Shown in pieces: positions 7,833 through 35,225 of a stretch of DNA of 64,000 nt. This stretch comes from an uncultured Phycisphaerales bacterium (GTDB lineage: Bacteria > Planctomycetota > Phycisphaerae > Tepidisphaerales > Tepidisphaeraceae): assembly GCA_963844715.1 (NCBI GenBank), contig CAWJPJ010000007.1, positions 512,001-576,000 of the forward strand, written 5' to 3'. The notes under the pieces are model-generated. The model did no database searches. It worked only from the letters and a program-made list of their open reading frames with translations, and was not told the origin of the DNA. Every line of letters begins with the position of its first letter. The stretch's first letter is position 1. The position numbers and the translations under genes were made by a program.

Positions 7833-8111
7833 GAAGTTAACCTCGATTGCAGCCGCCTGGGCCGCACTCCGCCGCGGGGTATGCCAAACCATTCTATGCC
7901 GCGATTTGGCCCTTGTTAGTTGTACTGATATTCATGCGGTAGGGTTCGCGGGGCAGTTCGGTAATAGATGGCAATTAAGGAGCTTATCCAAGGACGCCAA
8001 AGGGCGATTTTACCTTATCGGGGGGCTGAATCACAAGAAGAAAGGGCGGGGGTTTTTGCGGGATTTTCGGGGATTTGCCAAGGGAGGCCGGGTCGGCTAT
8101 ATGACGCCAAA

Positions 8112-8697
8112 ATGCCCAGGCTCAAAGCTCCGCAGAGACGTCAACAGTTAATGGGGGTGGCAACCAAGCTGTTCGCGAAATGGGGGTATAACGCGACCAC
8201 GACGGCGGCGATCGCCGATGCCGCCGGCGTGACCGAGCCGATCCTCTATCGTCACTTTTCCAACAAGCAGGATCTGTTCGTCGCCATCACGCGAGCGATG
8301 AGCGAGCAGACGCTGCAATACTGGCGGCAGATGATCGAGGGGGCAGCCGGGCGCGACGGAAAAAATCCGGGCGATCGCCAGGGGATTTCCGGCCCATATC
8401 CGCAAGCTGGAAGACGCGTACCACGTTCTGCACGGCGCGCTGGTGACCAGCCGGGACCGGAAAGTGCTGGCGGTCATCCGGGAACACTATTCGGAGATCG
8501 AAAAATTTTTCAGCGCGATCATCTCGCAGGGCCAGTCAGCGGGGGAATTCCGGCGCGACATGGATCCGAGAATTCCGACCTGGGAATTAATTAATCTGGG
8601 AATCGGATACGCGATGATCACGCTCAATCTGCATCAGGTCGAACATTTTTCGGTGGAAGACGGGATTGATCACATCTTGAGGGGATTGAAAGCTTGA
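8112..8697 (+). CDS. TetR/AcrR-family transcriptional regulator (frameshift near 8350)
   Basis: ATKLFAKWGYNATTTAAIADAAGVTEPILYRHFSNKQDLF HTH; C-terminal GQSAGEFRRD in a second frame. Confidence 0.9.
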
Positions 8698-8703
8698 TGA
8701 GGA

Positions 8704-8786
8704 AATGCTGATTGGTGATTGGTGAATGATGAATTGAAGAGGTGGGAACGGCCGCAATTCAATTCAGCACTCAGCATTCATCATTC
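8704..8786. repeat. inverted repeat built from degenerate heptamer tandem units (A[A/T]TGNTG-like / CANTCAN-like)
   Basis: aatgctg-attggtg-attggtg-aatgatg-aattg ... caattc-aattcag-cactcag-cattcat-cattc. Confidence 0.65.
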
Positions 8787-8799
8787 GGAATTTGCCCCT

Positions 8800-9367
8800 A
8801 TAAAGCCAGAAGGCCCACGAAGTGACTCGCGACGTCACCGCGTGGGCCAGCCGTGTGTTTCCACCTGGCGCTCTGGTTCGGACCGATTTTTTCGGCAACC
8901 TGCTCCCGGGCCTGGGCCCGCCTCGATCCAATCAGCATGAACCAACAGTTGCCTGAAGATTCACACAGACGGTAGGTCGCGGCTGTATCCGCCGCGACCG
9001 CGCGCCCAACAGGGCGGCATGGCGGTTTCCCGACTGGATGGCCGTGGGCTTCGCTGTCCCGAGCCCGTTCCTAGGATCGCAGTCCCGTCGCACCCCGTTA
9101 CCAGAGCGCTGAGGACAAGCTGGGCTCGATCCGCCGGAGGTCGGGGGACTCTCTCCCCGCGGTTCGGCGGATCACAGGCGGCGACTCTAACCCGGATTGC
9201 CGCAGGCGTTTTTACGCCGAGCGTTTACGGGTGGCCTCATCGCTGGCCGCCGACTTTCGCCGTGCCCGCATTTGAGTTTGCTTTGCACGGTCTTCGCGTT
9301 AGAAAGTCGGACTTTTACGTCAGGAGCGTTTTCCTTTTTCGCCGGTCACTTCCGTGCCCGACGACGT
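8800..9367 (-). ncRNA. putative large structured non-coding RNA (~570 nt), family unassigned
   Basis: At least 10 stems including a 10-bp long-range helix; GAAA tetraloops and A-rich loops on the minus strand; upstream TATATT -10; 3' hairpin followed by a U-containing tail; no credible ORF. Confidence 0.7.
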
Positions 9368-9404
9368 GGGGAAATATATCGCGGCAAACAAAAAAATCGG
9401 AGAA

Positions 9405-9502
9405 TTATCGACAGCTAAAAATTACTTATCCACCGGAGCGCGCAAATGCTTTGGGGACAAGCGAAATCGCGGTGCATAAACCGGTGGATAATCTGATCCA
9501 CA
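9405..9502. promoter_or_regulatory. cluster of six DnaA-box-like nonamers
   Basis: TTATCGACA 9405, TTATCCACC 9426, TTGTCCCCA(rc) 9452, TTATGCACC(rc) 9471, TTATCCACC(rc) 9483, TGATCCACA 9494, compared with consensus TTWTNCACA. Confidence 0.65.
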
Positions 9503-9539
9503 TGCCGCGGAAGAGGAAAAGATTGATACGATATCATGG

Positions 9540-10127
9540 ATGCAACTCTCTGATCGGGCGGCGGAAGTCCTTTTGAATATGGCCGGGGACCTGATTCGCC
9601 GGAGCCTGGCGCCGGCGGCCGTCGCGGCGGCGAATCCGCCGGTTTTTCCGGATGATCCGGAGCTGGTGCAGCCGGCGGGGTGTTTTGTGTCCCTGCACGA
9701 GAAGGCCGCGCACAATTTGCGTGGATGTATCGGGATTCTTGAAAGTGAAAAGCCGCTGCGCGAAACGCTGGCGGCCGCGGCGGATGGGGTTTTGAAAGAT
9801 CCGCGATTCGTGCATCAGCCGGTGACGTTCGAGGAGCTGGCTCGGCTGGAGATTGAAGTGACGGTGATTGGGCCGATGAAGCCGGCGGCGAGTCCGCTGG
9901 ATTTTGATCCTCGGGAGAATGGGATTTTTTTGACGCTTGCGGGTCGGTCCGGGTGTTTTTTGCCGCAGGTGGGGAGGGAGACGGGGTGGTCGCGGGAGCA
10001 GCTTTTGTCGCGGCTATGCACGGAGAAGATGGGGTTGACTGGGGATGCGTGGCGGCGCGGGGACGCGAATTTGCGGGTTTTTAATGCGGTGGTGATTGGG
10101 CCGCGTGCGCTTTCGAGTGAAATCTAA
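9540..10127 (+). CDS. amrA: AMMECR1-domain protein (AmmeMemoRadiSam protein A-like)
   Basis: GCFVSL, LRGCIG, DPRF, LEIEVTVI, GCFLPQV, W...L..KMG motifs. Confidence 0.9.
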   Translation: MQLSDRAAEVLLNMAGDLIRRSLAPAAVAAANPPVFPDDPELVQPAGCFVSLHEKAAHNLRGCIGILESEKPLRETLAAAADGVLKDPRFVHQPVTFEELARLEIEVTVIGPMKPAASPLDFDPRENGIFLTLAGRSGCFLPQVGRETGWSREQLLSRLCTEKMGLTGDAWRRGDANLRVFNAVVIGPRALSSEI

Positions 10128-10170
10128 CGGCGTGCTGGCTTCGACAGGCGCAGCCCAGGACGCACGCCCG

Positions 10171-11607
10171 CTAAATAGGTTTGGTGGGGGCGTCGCCCAA
10201 AATGGGTAGCTGAACCTTTACGCTGCGATCTTGTCCATCATCCAATCCTGGCGCGGTTCCGATGAATTTCTGATCGATTTGTTTCACATTCCGGACGGGC
10301 AGGAAAGTGGCGGGCATCAGGTCCGGGGATTTTGGGCCGTCGTGGCGGTGGAGGACGTTGTAGTACTGATCGCGCTGGGCGGGGAACCAGCCGGCGTCGC
10401 GGATGAGGCGGCAGATTTCTCGCTCGCTGAGGCGGTAGGTTGTCCCGGCGGCACTGACGACGTTTTCCTCCATCATGACGCTGCCCATGTCGTTGGCCCC
10501 GAACATCATGGCCATCTGGCCGATCTTGGGGCCCATGGTGACCCAACTGCTTTGCAGGGAGGGGATGTTGTCGAGGAAGAGGCGGGCGATGGCGAGCATG
10601 CGCAGGTATTCGTCGGCGCCGGCCATGCGGACGACTCGGCCGCGGAGGATGTCGTCGTTGGTCGAGTCGTCGAAGGGGCCGTAGATGTCCGGGTCCCATT
10701 CGGCGGCGCGACCGAGGGGGGTGTTTTCACGTTGAAACGGCCAGTGGATGAACGCAGCGTAGCTGCCGGGATTATCGGGGATTTTGCCGTCGAATTCGGA
10801 TTTGGCGAAGACGCCCGGCCAGCGAGCTTTGATTCGTTCCACTTTGTCTGTTCGTCCCTGGGTCTGTTCGTCCCTTAGCGAGATCGCGTAATCCTGCATA
10901 TCGCGCACGGCCGCCATGTGCTCGATGCGCTCGCGGACGAATTCGATGTGCCCGATGAGCATGGTGGCGCTGCTGCTCATGCCTTCTTCGTGGGCGACGC
11001 GCATGACGCGGAGCCAGTCGTCGCCGGTGCATTTTCCCAGGCCGATTCGGCGGCGGACGCGCGGGGTGAAGATTTCGCCGCCCCCGCCGGGGATGGTATC
11101 GAGGCCGGCTTTGCGGAAGCGGCGGATGACCTGGCGGACGTCCATATTGAAGAACCGCTCGAACTCGATGAACTCGGGCGGCGAGAAGGCGTGAATGTGA
11201 ATGGTGGGGAAAGTGGTTTTGATGAAGCGGAGGAGATTTTCGTAGTACTCGATGGGGAGCTGGTCGTTCATGCCGCCTTGCATGAGGATTTGAGTGCCGC
11301 CGATGGAGACGAGTTCGGAGATTTTCTGGCCGATCTGGTCGTGGCCGAGGGTGTAGGCGTCGACGTCTTCGTGGTCGCGGCGGAAGGCGCAGAAGGTGCA
11401 GCGGGCGGTGCAGACGTTGGTGTAGTTGATGTTGCGGTCGATGACGTAGGTGCGGTAGTCCTCGGGGTGCATGCGGCGGGCGGCGGCGGATGCCCAGCTT
11501 CCAAGATCGTGGAGAGAGGCGGAATGGTAAAGCTCCAACGCCTCGGCCTCGGTGAGCCGCCGCTTCCCGGCGATGATTTCGTCGATGTTGAAGGAGAGCG
11601 GGGGCAC
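10171..11607 (-). CDS. mqnC: CofH/MqnC-family radical SAM protein, probably cyclic dehypoxanthine futalosine synthase
   Basis: TYVIDRNINYTNVCTARCTFCAF (CxxxCxxC), ILMQGG, IPGGGGEI, QSSWVTMG, GANDMGSVMMEENVVSAAG; GTG start assumed. Confidence 0.85.
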   Translation of the reverse strand: MPPLSFNIDEIIAGKRRLTEAEALELYHSASLHDLGSWASAAARRMHPEDYRTYVIDRNINYTNVCTARCTFCAFRRDHEDVDAYTLGHDQIGQKISELVSIGGTQILMQGGMNDQLPIEYYENLLRFIKTTFPTIHIHAFSPPEFIEFERFFNMDVRQVIRRFRKAGLDTIPGGGGEIFTPRVRRRIGLGKCTGDDWLRVMRVAHEEGMSSSATMLIGHIEFVRERIEHMAAVRDMQDYAISLRDEQTQGRTDKVERIKARWPGVFAKSEFDGKIPDNPGSYAAFIHWPFQRENTPLGRAAEWDPDIYGPFDDSTNDDILRGRVVRMAGADEYLRMLAIARLFLDNIPSLQSSWVTMGPKIGQMAMMFGANDMGSVMMEENVVSAAGTTYRLSEREICRLIRDAGWFPAQRDQYYNVLHRHDGPKSPDLMPATFLPVRNVKQIDQKFIGTAPGLDDGQDRSVKVQLPILGDAPTKPI

Positions 11608-35153: not shown

Positions 35154-35225
35154 AGCGGGCGAACGGACTCGAACCGTCAACATCCTGCTTGGAAGGCAGG
35201 TGCTCTGCCATTGAGCTACGCCCGC
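35154..35225 (-). tRNA. tRNA-Gly (anticodon TCC), CCA not encoded
   Basis: rc: GCGGGCG TAGCTCAATGGCAGAGC A CCTGC CT TCC AA GCAGG ATGTT GACGG TTCGAGT CCGTT CGCCCGC T. Confidence 0.96.

What the first reader, a model, noticed from the sequence alone, without database searches (positions are those of the whole stretch)
8800..9367. Candidate previously unassigned ~570-nt structured RNA, independently transcribed on the minus strand
Seen in sequence (+ coordinates): perfect stems GGCCCACG 8812-8819/CGTGGGCC 8841-8848 with inner GTGAC/GTCAC; a 10-bp long-range helix GCGCTCTGGT 8868-8877/ACCAGAGCGC 9100-9109 closing a ~240-nt multibranch domain; GGCAAC 8894/GTTGCC 8948; GGTCGCGGC 8975/GCCGCGACC 8991; GGGCT 9046/AGCCC 9062; GATCCGCCG 9128/CGGCGGATC 9165; GGCGT 9205/ACGCC 9214; CCGACTTTC 9250/GAAAGTCGG 9302 enclosing CCGTGC 9260/GCACGG 9285. 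On the minus strand the loops are A-rich and include GNRA tetraloops (GUG-GAAA-CAC 8855-8864, CGG-GAAA-CCG 9023-9032). A TATATT -10 lies at 9373-9378 (predicted start ~9367) and the 3' hairpin is followed by UUCUGGCUUUA. No minus-strand gene follows (TetR is convergent), so a cis-acting riboswitch is unlikely. Established knowledge: it lacks the signatures of RNase P (GAGGAAAGUCC...ACAGAA), tmRNA (tRNA-like ends with CCA), SRP RNA and group II intron D5. Inference: a large trans-acting ncRNA in the size class of OLE/ROOL, in a lineage where I know of no such RNA.
Basis: partly seen in the sequence, partly recalled or inferred. Interest (0 to 1): 0.9.

Follow-up and report, generated by a model that had tools for sequence, protein, structure and literature searches.

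The report
New large self-pairing bacterial RNA
This stretch encodes a previously undescribed, about 565-base, intricately folded non-coding RNA found only in one family of soil bacteria (Tepidisphaeraceae), and its sequence pattern suggests that copies of the RNA stick to each other as the few known giant "ornate" bacterial RNAs do.

Summary
The finding holds. Window 8801-9365 (minus strand) is a stand-alone gene for a ~565-nt structured RNA. It matches no Rfam 15 family. RNase P, tmRNA and SRP RNA lie elsewhere in the genome.

Full-length homologues (494-1014 nt) occur in 56 of 141 Tepidisphaeraceae genomes. None were found in 130 other Phycisphaerae or 150 other Planctomycetota genomes sampled.

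A model of 174 base pairs with two pseudoknots is 93.7% paired across 48 sequences, against 34-43% for slid controls, and 110 pairs change on both sides. No reading frame is conserved. Contigs from RNA libraries of three studies cover the gene.

New here:
- Two single-stranded palindromes, UCCUAGGA and the 3' hairpin loop UCGCGA, change only into other palindromes. That pattern marks symmetric RNA-RNA contacts in OLE and GOLLD.
- Three DnaA-box-like sites sit at fixed distances upstream of the promoter.

Function is unknown. My best reading is a self-associating trans-acting RNA, possibly under DnaA control.

The parts
8801..9365 (-). Gene for the structured RNA (565 nt in this genome). RNA position p corresponds to window coordinate 9366-p.
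   Evidence: The conserved block has fixed 5' and 3' ends in nhmmer matches. Alignments are A2 and the 93-sequence set. Covariation is counted. RNA-library contigs cover 8831-9358.
9373..9378 (-). -10 promoter box TATATT, 7 nt before the first conserved base.
   Evidence: Upstream sequences. TATATT-type 8-mers occur at -14..-7 in at least 55 of 91 loci. The transcription start itself is not mapped.
9483..9491 (-). DnaA-box-like site 1 (TTATCCACC), about 126-127 nt upstream of the RNA start.
   Evidence: Within 1 mismatch at this place in 72 of 91 loci.
9471..9479 (-). DnaA-box-like site 2 (TTATGCACC), one helical turn after site 1 and in the same orientation.
   Evidence: Within 1 mismatch of the site-3 9-mer in 58 of 91 loci.
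9426..9434 (+). DnaA-box-like site 3 (TTATCCACC on the + strand, inverted relative to sites 1 and 2), about 69-70 nt upstream of the RNA start.
   Evidence: Within 1 mismatch in 78 of 91 loci. With 9405-9413 and 9494-9502 it forms the only cluster of 3 or more such boxes in the 4.55-Mb assembly.
9339..9364 (-). 5' terminal hairpin (RNA 2-27) with a G[G/A]AA loop.
   Evidence: Helix 1: 97.7% of cells paired, and 5 of 10 pairs change on both sides.
9321..9327 (-). 5' arm of the long-range helix RNA 39-45 x 458-464. The partner is at window 8902-8908. This helix closes most of the molecule.
   Evidence: Helix 2: 93.7% paired, and 5 of 7 pairs change on both sides. Coordinates.
9195..9201 (-). Pseudoknot Px, 5' arm GGCAAUC (RNA 165-171). 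It pairs with GGUUGCC (RNA 466-472, window 8894-8900) and crosses the long-range helix.
   Evidence: Found by mutual information. 98-100% canonical pairing in 93 sequences, with GC/AU/UA/CG switches. Helix 11: 99.7% paired, 5 of 7 pairs change on both sides.
8879..8886 (-). Pseudoknot Py, 3' arm (RNA 480-487). It pairs with RNA 436-443 (window 8923-8930).
   Evidence: Helix 29: 98.4% paired, 4 of 8 pairs change on both sides.
9068..9077 (-). Single-stranded palindrome UCCUAGGA in a three-way junction. The core CCUAGG is at 9070-9075 (RNA 291-296). Proposed symmetric RNA-RNA contact.
   Evidence: A self-complementary word of 6 nt or more is present in 126 of 129 sequences, in six versions (UCCUAGGA/CCUAGG, UCCAUGGA, UCCUCGAGGA, CCCGGG, UUCUAGAA, UCCUGGGA).
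8812..8848 (-). 3' terminal hairpin (RNA 518-554), terminator-like. Its loop holds the palindrome UCGCGA (window 8827-8832). The tail UUCUGGCUUUA follows, and its UCUGGC pairs back to CCAGAG at 8871-8876.
   Evidence: Helices 30 and 31 (98.4% paired, 10 of 14 pairs change on both sides). The loop is palindromic in 93 of 93 full-length sequences: UCGCGA 91, UCUAGA 1, UCAUGA 1.
9540..10127 (+). Divergent neighbour gene, AMMECR1 family. This is context, not part of the RNA.
   Evidence: AMMECR1 is the upstream neighbour at 18 of 48 loci.
7968..8697 (+). Convergent neighbour gene, TetR family, read in two frames here. This is context, not part of the RNA.
   Evidence: TetR is the downstream neighbour at 10 of 48 loci.

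Best explanation
Window 8801-9365 (minus strand) is the gene of a new family of large, trans-acting, highly structured non-coding RNA. The family is confined, as far as searched, to part of the family Tepidisphaeraceae (Phycisphaerae, Planctomycetota).

Shown here:
- The gene is a self-contained unit: three DnaA-box-like sites, a -10 box, 494-1014 nt of RNA, and a 3' hairpin followed by a U-rich tail.
- The RNA folds into about 30 helices with two pseudoknots, kept by compensatory changes.
- Length varies by insertions at six fixed places.
- It is not coding.
- It is present in RNA libraries.

Inferred:
1. The RNA binds copies of itself through two conserved single-stranded palindromes, junction UCCUAGGA and 3' loop UCGCGA, forming a symmetric homodimer or larger assembly (my odds about 0.55-0.6). 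In the sequences examined these elements changed into other palindromes in all but three junction rows and three doubtful 3'-loop rows. Adjacent bases cannot pair within one chain.
2. Transcription is controlled by a protein bound to the three upstream sites, most simply DnaA, which would tie RNA synthesis to replication status (odds about 0.4).
3. The assembled RNA works as a scaffold or RNA-protein particle rather than by base-pairing to mRNAs. The cellular task is unknown.
For: Homologues: 56 of 141 genomes of the family match by blastn, and the same 56 match covariance model R1. nhmmer shows full-length units with fixed ends.

Structure: on A2 (48 sequences), 174 pairs are 93.7% paired against 34.4-43.1% when partners are slid. 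110 pairs change on both sides against 41-59 slid. The covariation score is 0.330 against 0.057-0.076 slid, and 0 of 500 shuffles reach it. On 93 sequences, 168 pairs are 94.4% paired against 34.7-43.4% slid. Pseudoknots Px and Py are supported.

Strand: 721 GU/UG cells against 123 AC/CA cells.

Not coding: a median of 10 frameshifting indel runs relative to G000 in the first 347 nt, with zero only in G000 itself (1 of 93).

Not a known family. RNase P, tmRNA and SRP RNA are elsewhere in the genome.

In RNA libraries: contigs from 4 runs of 3 studies lie on 8831-9358. These include pieces of 374 and 362 nt with 1 differing letter and a 143-nt piece with none.

Palindromes: the junction element is self-complementary in 126 of 129 sequences, in 6 versions. 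The 3' loop is self-complementary in 93 of 93 full-length sequences, in 3 versions, while its stem covaries. Kretsch et al. 2025 (PMC12286853, passages read) use this same 'palindrome switching at adjacent nucleotides' to support the symmetric kissing loops seen by cryo-EM in OLE and GOLLD.

Upstream sites: all three sites match within 2 mismatches in 76 of 91 loci. The background rate is 9 of 1860. All 23 blastn matches of the upstream region with E below 1e-3 lie beside an RNA copy. Both duplicated copies in G066 that have an intact 5' end (L056, L057) keep the sites, while the spacers between the sites differ. The third copy (L058) lacks the 5' end and was not examined.

Independence from neighbours: the flanking genes differ between genera.
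Against: - No experiment shows the ends, the strand, the amount or the oligomeric state. The RNA-library data are assembled contigs, which cannot give strand, ends or level.
- The simple scan did not call the promoter or the terminator. The U-tract is interrupted.
- Three of 129 junction sequences are not self-complementary: CCCAGGG, CCUAAG and one poorly aligned row.
- The palindrome-preserving changes number only about 7 variant types. Some come from related sequences, so there are few independent events.
- A dimeric protein could also select for palindromes.
- The DnaA-box reading rests on likeness to the E. coli consensus, which I recalled rather than tested. No DnaA binding is known for this lineage. 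Four of 91 loci have none of the sites.
- The RNA is missing from 85 of 141 genomes of the family, so it is not essential to the family.
Confidence: 0.8

Rival explanations
1. The RNA gene is part of, or directly abuts, the chromosomal replication origin or a DnaA-titrating or DnaA-reactivating locus. On this reading the three boxes plus the A+T-rich 50 nt are the functional core, and the transcript acts in or on initiation of replication.
For: The site cluster at window 9405-9502 is the only cluster of 3 or more DnaA-box-like 9-mers within 200-300 bp in the whole 4.55-Mb assembly. In the complete genome G077 (titled Fontivita pretiosa B-254), sampled GC skew is mostly negative from 0 to about 2.3 Mb and mostly positive from about 2.77 to 5.1 Mb. 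The RNA gene at 2.504 Mb lies inside the noisy switch zone, about 155 kb from the local cumulative minimum at about 2.66 Mb.
Against: - There is no skew switch at the locus in G000 and none exactly at the locus in G077. G078 has no usable skew.
- G066 carries three RNA copies. The two examined (L056, L057) each have the boxes.
- The dnaA homologues are 0.28 to 1.9 Mb away in G077, G018, G078 and G105.
- The flanking genes are not conserved across genera.
- The box region was found only beside RNA copies and not in RNA-less relatives, although blastn is weak for such short sites.
Confidence: 0.15
2. The RNA is real and new but acts as a monomer. On this reading the two palindromes are binding sites for a dimeric protein or take part in intramolecular tertiary contacts, not RNA-RNA self-association.
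For: The palindromes are almost invariant (110 of 129 and 91 of 93 sequences), as protein sites often are. RNAalifold offers a weak local 3-bp hairpin over the junction element (helix 21). No oligomer has been observed.
Against: When the elements do change, they change at two adjacent or mirror positions at once and stay self-complementary: UA to AU, CG inserted at the centre, CCUAGG to CCCGGG or UCUAGA, and CGCG to CUAG or CAUG. One variant stays self-complementary only through G-U pairs (UCCUGGGA), which points to pairing at the RNA level. Single changes that would break the symmetry were seen in only 1-2 sequences.
Confidence: 0.3
3. It is a very diverged member of a known RNA family (RNase P, tmRNA, 6S, OLE, ROOL, GOLLD, a group I or II intron, HEARO or raiA).
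For: Its size and complexity resemble those classes. The genome G000 gave no 6S match.
Against: No Rfam 15 model reaches its threshold on the window. With relaxed settings the best of 10 matches has E 0.77 and scores far below its gathering score. RNase P, tmRNA and SRP RNA are found elsewhere in G000 with full scores. 6S-like matches co-occur with the new RNA in 16 genomes, including G077 and G018. ARAGORN finds nothing.
Confidence: 0.03
4. It is a cis-acting leader, an antisense regulator of a neighbour, a small-protein mRNA, or the RNA of a mobile element or phage.
For: AMMECR1 is the divergent neighbour at 18 of 48 loci and TetR the convergent one at 10 of 48. Long open frames exist, as expected at about 60% G+C. 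One locus has an IS200-type transposase next to it.
Against: No gene follows on the RNA's strand, and a conserved hairpin plus U-rich tail ends the unit. Neighbours differ between genera. There are frameshifting indels throughout. It is single-copy in most genomes. There are no matches in 50,697 phage or 72,556 plasmid records.
Confidence: 0.02

Closest known systems
OLE RNA (Ornate Large Extremophilic RNA)
   Same: It is about 600 nt, has many conserved helices, is non-coding and is a stand-alone gene. OLE forms a homodimer held partly by a symmetric kissing loop whose palindrome switches between palindromic versions (PMC12286853, passages read). The two palindromic elements here show the same sequence pattern.
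   Different: There is no sequence or covariance-model likeness. The phylum differs: Planctomycetota rather than, by my recollection, Bacillota. No OLE-associated protein genes were looked for or seen nearby. Self-association here is only inferred. Upstream DnaA-box-like sites are not, to my knowledge, a feature of OLE.
ROOL and GOLLD RNAs
   Same: They are large (roughly 580-800 nt) ornate bacterial RNAs of unknown function. They assemble into homo-oligomers through kissing loops and A-minor contacts, with variable linker regions (PMC12286853, abstract and passages). This RNA likewise has a conserved core plus insertion hot spots.
   Different: There is no match to their Rfam models. By my recollection those RNAs are often phage- or prophage-linked. 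This RNA has no phage or plasmid matches and sits among chromosomal housekeeping genes. The stoichiometry here is unknown.
Retroviral dimerisation-initiation-type kissing hairpin (for example the HIV-1 DIS; recalled, not tested)
   Same: It is a hairpin whose loop carries a 6-nt palindrome that pairs with the same loop of a second RNA molecule. The 3' hairpin loop here (N + UCGCGA, with UCUAGA or UCAUGA in variants) has that form.
   Different: The context is unrelated. Here the hairpin also looks like an intrinsic terminator, and dimerisation is untested.
DnaA-controlled promoters and DnaA-box clusters such as oriC, datA and DARS in E. coli (recalled)
   Same: There are several 9-mers within one mismatch of TTATCCACA in fixed order and orientation: two direct sites one helical turn apart and one inverted.
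   Different: The ninth base is C rather than A. The sites travel with an RNA gene, including the two duplicated copies examined. No origin-type GC-skew switch falls exactly there. Binding by DnaA is untested.
RNase P RNA, tmRNA and 6S RNA
   Same: They are stand-alone structured RNA genes. RNase P RNA and tmRNA also contain pseudoknots, by my recollection.
   Different: RNase P RNA, tmRNA and SRP RNA each have their own gene elsewhere in this genome. 6S gave no match in G000, but 6S-like genes co-occur with the new RNA in 16 related genomes. This RNA is restricted to part of one family, so it is not a universal housekeeping RNA.

Membership tests
Any Rfam 15 family (4227 models, including RNase P, tmRNA, SRP, 6S, OLE, ROOL, GOLLD, raiA, HEARO and group I/II introns) | Score at or above the family's gathering threshold against its covariance model | tested here: not met
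   The only hit in the window is a tRNA at 35154-35225. With E up to 10 on 8600-9650 there are 10 weak matches. The best has E 0.77 and all score far below their thresholds.
RNase P RNA / tmRNA / SRP RNA | Being the genome's copy of that universal RNA | tested here: not met
   Full-score copies lie elsewhere in G000: RNase P at C8:629666-630071 (301 bits), tmRNA at C7:1281451-1281835 (154 bits) and SRP at C6:890690-890788 (64 bits). ARAGORN finds nothing at 8000-10500.
6S RNA | About 185 nt with a central bubble, and mutually exclusive with any replacement RNA | tested here: not met
   The size is about 3 times larger and there is no model match. 6S-like matches co-occur with the new RNA in 16 of the 41 genomes that have one.
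Large 'ornate' self-assembling bacterial RNAs (the kind typified by OLE, ROOL and GOLLD) | Over 500 nt, with many helices kept by covariation, and non-coding | tested here: met
   Lengths are 494-1014 nt, median 591. There are 174 pairs and 2 pseudoknots, 93.7% paired. No frame is conserved.
Large 'ornate' self-assembling bacterial RNAs (the kind typified by OLE, ROOL and GOLLD) | Sequence signature of symmetric intermolecular pairing (single-stranded palindromes that switch to other palindromes) | tested here: met
   Junction element: 126 of 129 sequences self-complementary, in 6 versions. 3' loop: 93 of 93 full-length sequences, in 3 versions. The criterion is as used in PMC12286853.
Large 'ornate' self-assembling bacterial RNAs (the kind typified by OLE, ROOL and GOLLD) | Observed homo-oligomer of the pure RNA | not testable with these tools
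   This needs native gels, mass photometry or cryo-EM.
Large 'ornate' self-assembling bacterial RNAs (the kind typified by OLE, ROOL and GOLLD) | Homology (shared sequence or structure core) with OLE, ROOL or GOLLD | tested here: not met
   It is therefore a separate family and resembles them only in kind.
Chromosomal replication origin (oriC) | Cluster of DnaA boxes next to an A+T-rich stretch | tested here: met
   It is the unique cluster in the assembly. The stretch between site 3 and the -10 box is A+T-rich.
Chromosomal replication origin (oriC) | GC-skew sign switch at the site | tested here: inconclusive
   There is no switch at the locus in G000. In G077 the locus lies within the broad switch zone, about 155 kb from the local cumulative minimum. 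G078 is uninformative.
Chromosomal replication origin (oriC) | One per chromosome | tested here: not met
   G066 has three RNA copies, and the two examined (L056, L057) each have the boxes. G128 and G139 have two RNA copies.
Riboswitch or cis-regulatory leader | A conserved downstream gene on the same strand | tested here: not met
   The downstream gene is convergent here and differs between genera. The unit ends in a conserved hairpin plus U-rich tail.

The most novel reading that the evidence does not exclude
A self-assembling RNA particle (a symmetric dimer, or a larger cage or filament built through two different palindromic contacts) whose production is gated by the replication initiator DnaA. 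It would be a cell-cycle-coupled RNA machine in Planctomycetota. Its gene-plus-box module might itself act on DnaA or on origin firing, as the datA and DARS loci do in E. coli (those loci are recalled, not tested).
Probability: 0.2. Interest if true: 0.92.

Novelty: new variant of a known kind. Interest (0 to 1): 0.86.

Why it matters
Only a handful of bacterial RNAs longer than 500 nt with elaborate conserved folds are known. Each one (RNase P, group I and II introns, OLE, ROOL, GOLLD) has opened a field.

This is a well-supported new family. It comes from a phylum and habitat (soil and peat Planctomycetota) for which my searches found no such RNA described. It has two pseudoknots and, without any structure determination, the same sequence signature that marked RNA-only quaternary assemblies in OLE and GOLLD.

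It gives structural biologists a new natural RNA to test for self-assembly. A cultured carrier with a complete genome, Fontivita pretiosa B-254, makes genetics and biochemistry possible. The fixed trio of DnaA-box-like sites offers a testable link between a large RNA and replication control.

Tried and rejected
Family and identity checks:
- Rfam at gathering and relaxed thresholds gave nothing. ARAGORN gave nothing.
- The consensus promoter and terminator scan called a different weak promoter-like site (9432-9404) and no minus-strand terminator.
- Coding was rejected.
- No phage or plasmid records match.
- 6S replacement was rejected because the two co-occur.

Wider searches:
- Model R1 on the 'order' searched the same 141 genomes as the family, so that search was wasted.
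- The class sample gave only one E=0.008 match outside the family.
- The phylum sample gave one 26.7-bit match (G308). It has no nhmmer support and looks like coding repeat sequence.
- The tally (13 of 41) is not used. It includes genomes that matched only a short multi-copy repeat at 8761-8792.

Structure alternatives dropped:
- RNAalifold's helix 32-38 x 466-471 and the mini-hairpin 479-487 were replaced by pseudoknots Px and Py.

oriC tests: GC skew in G000, G077 and G078 gave no clean answer. The dnaA genes are not nearby.

RNA libraries:
- In the four runs laid, the flanks 8300-8785 and 9380-9900 had no cover.
- Summed contig word depths (up to about 8.9e5 in X5) are not a measure of expression.
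- A 143-nt contig ends at 9358 and runs into adapter letters, which is at most a hint of a fragment end.
- The 'joints' come from relatives with different variable regions, not from splicing.

Literature: searches found no description of this RNA. Term look-ups in three papers found no mention of Planctomycetes. Their supplements were not seen and could list motifs. Earlier findings of this scan: none. One search was a malformed request.

That question was then answered from alignment columns instead.
Full report
**1. What is there**

As single-stranded RNA the minus strand of 8800-9367 folds to -271.5 kcal/mol, against -235.5 +/- 6.5 for 100 dinucleotide-preserving shuffles (z -5.54). The plus strand gives z -3.15.

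No Rfam 15 model reaches its threshold anywhere in the window except a tRNA at 35154-35225. With relaxed settings on 8600-9650 the best of ten matches has E 0.77. ARAGORN finds no tRNA or tmRNA nearby. The genome's own RNase P RNA, tmRNA and SRP RNA are found with full scores on other contigs or far away. 6S gave no match in this genome. The element is single-copy in G000.

**2. Homologues and limits of the unit**

blastn with window 8796-9380 (minus strand) finds matches in 56 of 141 genomes of the same family, covering 32 of 76 genera. A covariance model of the 150-nt core (R1) finds the same 56. Profile searches show that nearly all are complete units with the same first bases (GUCGUCGG...) and the same 3' hairpin. 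Lengths run from 494 to 1014 nt, with a median of 591 over 93 sequences. In this window the unit is 8801-9365.

Length differences come from insertions at six fixed places, after RNA positions 127, 197, 255/256, 309, 495 and 514.

A pattern scan of one genome per species (185,579 species) gave 54 loci. Of these, 48 carry Tepidisphaeraceae, Tepidisphaerales, Phycisphaerae/-ales, Planctomycetota, Humisphaera or Fontivita labels, including the complete genome of Fontivita pretiosa B-254. 43 of the 54 held a full-length unit, all identical to sequences I already had.

Outside the family, R1 found nothing convincing. In the class sample, 1 of 130 genomes matched, at E 0.008. In the phylum sample, 1 of 150 matched, at 26.7 bits, and I rejected it. 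These are samples, so the statement is 'not found in those searched'.

Of 80 loci fetched, 75 match the full profile, and 45 gave new full-length sequences.

G004 is unpublished. It is one of the 56 positives but is in none of the structure or palindrome counts.

**3. Structure**

RNAalifold on the 48-sequence alignment A2 gave a nested model. Its 170 pairs are 93.3% paired, against 36-43% when partners are slid.

Mutual information on a 93-sequence alignment then showed two helices that cross the nested ones:
- Px: GGCAAUC (RNA 165-171) with GGUUGCC (466-472).
- Py: RNA 436-443 with 480-487.

Both are 98-100% canonical with GC/AU/UA/CG switches. The RNAalifold alternatives for the same bases break when those bases change.

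The revised model has 174 pairs in 31 helices:
- 93.7% of cells are paired, against 34.4-43.1% slid.
- 110 pairs change on both sides, against 41-59 slid.
- The covariation score is 0.330, against 0.057-0.076 slid, and 0 of 500 shuffles reach it.

The shuffle control ignores relatedness, so the slid controls are the fairer ones.

Main features:
- a 5' hairpin (RNA 2-27)
- a long-range helix (39-45 x 458-464) that closes most of the molecule
- several multi-helix junctions
- a 3' hairpin (518-554) bracketed by CCAGAG/UCUGGC

185 of 565 positions are conserved in at least 90 of 93 sequences.

**4. Strand and coding**

In the model's cells there are 721 GU/UG against 123 AC/CA. The fold is 93.7% paired on the minus strand and would be 86.5% paired on the plus strand. 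The RNA is therefore the minus-strand transcript.

Open frames are long on both strands, as expected at about 60% G+C. However, relative to G000 the homologues carry a median of 10 frameshifting indel runs within the first 347 nt, and only G000 itself has none. No frame is conserved, including the + strand ORF 9019-9576.

**5. Transcription unit and expression**

A TATATT-type box sits 7 nt before the first conserved base in most loci. The 3' hairpin is followed by UUCUGG(U/C)UUU. The simple consensus scan called neither, so both remain inferences.

No gene follows on the same strand. The TetR gene is convergent and the AMMECR1 gene divergent. Across 48 loci the upstream neighbour is AMMECR1 in 18 and the downstream neighbour TetR in 10. 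Elsewhere the neighbours are unrelated genes. The RNA gene therefore moves as its own module.

Words of the stretch occur in RNA runs. I laid four of them, from three studies. All hold contigs on 8831-9358, including pieces of 374 and 362 nt with one differing letter and a 143-nt piece with none, plus hundreds of contigs 90-99% alike from relatives. Contigs cannot give strand, ends or level. The flanks are dealt with under Tried and rejected.

**6. Upstream sites**

Three 9-mers like the DnaA box (consensus TTATCCACA, recalled) stand at fixed distances from the RNA start:
- TTATCCACC at about -127
- TTATGCACC at about -116, in the same orientation
- an inverted TTATCCACC at about -70

Over 91 loci with enough upstream sequence, the sites match within one mismatch in 72, 58 and 78 loci. 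All three match within two mismatches in 76, and none matches in 4. The background rate is 9 of 1860.

In G000 this is the only cluster of three or more such boxes in 4.55 Mb.

Is it the origin? The evidence is mixed and leans against:
- The skew does not switch at the locus in G000.
- In the complete G077 genome the locus (2.504 Mb) lies in the broad negative-to-positive transition, about 155 kb from the local cumulative minimum.
- G078 has no usable skew.
- The dnaA homologues are 0.28-1.9 Mb away.
- G066 has three RNA copies. The two with an intact 5' end (L056, L057) keep the boxes while the spacers between the sites differ. The third, L058, lacks its 5' end and was not examined.
- All 23 upstream-region matches with E below 1e-3 lie beside an RNA copy.

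I therefore read the sites as the operator of the RNA promoter (inference) and keep the origin or DnaA-titration reading as a rival.

**7. Two palindromes**

(a) In the three-way junction formed by helix 239-244 x 300-305, the single-stranded GA-UCCUAGGA-AC contains an 8-nt palindrome. Among 129 sequences (93 full-length plus fragments) the self-complementary core is:
- UCCUAGGA or CCUAGG in 119
- UCCAUGGA in 2
- UCCUCGAGGA in 2
- CCCGGG in 1
- UUCUAGAA in 1
- UCCUGGGA in 1 (self-complementary through G-U pairs)
- none in 3 (CCCAGGG, CCUAAG and one poorly aligned row)

(b) The loop of the 3' hairpin is N+UCGCGA in 91 of 93 full-length sequences, UCUAGA in one and UCAUGA in one. All 93 are palindromic, while the stem beneath covaries freely. 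With fragments, 112 of 115 are palindromic. The three exceptions are rows that are cut or misaligned there.

Adjacent bases cannot pair within one chain. Kretsch et al. (Nature 2025, PMC12286853; abstract and passages read) used exactly this kind of palindrome switching to support the symmetric kissing loops seen by cryo-EM in OLE and GOLLD.

The number of independent switch events here is small, perhaps five to seven. Some variants come from related sequences (L060, L068 and L070 share a 5' hairpin type). A dimeric protein could also impose palindromes. I put self-association at 0.55-0.6.

**8. Most likely working**

Shown: a stand-alone, conserved, pseudoknotted, non-coding RNA gene that is present in RNA libraries.

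Inferred: it acts in trans as a folded particle that pairs with copies of itself through two symmetric contacts, and its promoter answers to a protein bound at the three DnaA-box-like sites. What the particle does is unknown.

It is not universal in the family: 85 of 141 genomes lack it, including 48 of the 72 high-quality ones. It co-exists with 6S-like RNAs. It is therefore an accessory function of a sub-group rather than a replacement for a universal RNA.

**9. Novelty**

I found no description of this RNA. Full-text searches were run by lineage and RNA terms and by two exact sequence strings. Term look-ups in three recent discovery papers found no mention of Planctomycetes; their supplements were not seen. 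Earlier notes of this scan hold nothing.

It is a new family within the known kind 'large ornate bacterial RNAs of unknown function'.

Noticed in passing
window 8708-8792: A long imperfect hairpin lies between the TetR stop codon and the RNA's 3' end. Its 3' arm (about 8761-8792) is a roughly 32-nt repeat. It also occurs at G000:C7:1272114 and many times in relatives (for example 8 matches listed in G015, several in G001 and G021, and one in another family, G028). It may be a REP-like element or a bidirectional terminator.
   Followed up: no
window 7968-8697: The TetR-family gene is read in two frames. ORF 7968-8594 matches residues 39-141 of the intact relative L003:2179-2889, with the likeness fading over the last third. 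ORF 8443-8697 matches residues 154-236 (77% identity). This indicates a frameshift near 8300-8445, caused either by gene decay or by an assembly error.
   Followed up: partly
G000 C5:44127-44609 and C8:535423-535899; G077, G078, G105, G018, G133: Every one of six Tepidisphaeraceae genomes examined has two DnaA-domain genes scoring 178-231 bits against Bac_DnaA.
   Followed up: no
G066: L056, L057, L058; G128 (C137 and C71); G139 (C55, C13 and fragments): Some genomes carry two or three copies of the RNA gene. In G066, two nearly identical copies lie 200 kb apart on opposite strands of one contig.
   Followed up: partly
L127 (JBLNDH010000136.1) and L092 (CAYPUQ010000193.1): L127, whose contig is titled 'Bacillota bacterium', holds a full-length copy identical to that of a Tepidisphaeraceae genome. 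L092, whose contig is titled 'Solibacteraceae', holds the conserved core motif only. The first, and probably the second, is a mis-binned or mislabelled MAG contig.
   Followed up: partly
G000 contig C7, about 370-420 kb, 560-570 kb and 1150-1230 kb: GC skew in 10-kb windows is unusually strong (up to +/-0.3) and flips abruptly several times. This may reflect gene-strand blocks, inversions or assembly joins.
   Followed up: no
L070:1796-2167 (G128): An IS200-type (Y1) transposase gene lies immediately upstream of one RNA copy.
   Followed up: no
L076 (G115), 1014-nt version: The longest homologue carries several hundred extra, strongly self-complementary nucleotides inserted around RNA position 255. 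This is a lineage-specific expansion domain.
   Followed up: no
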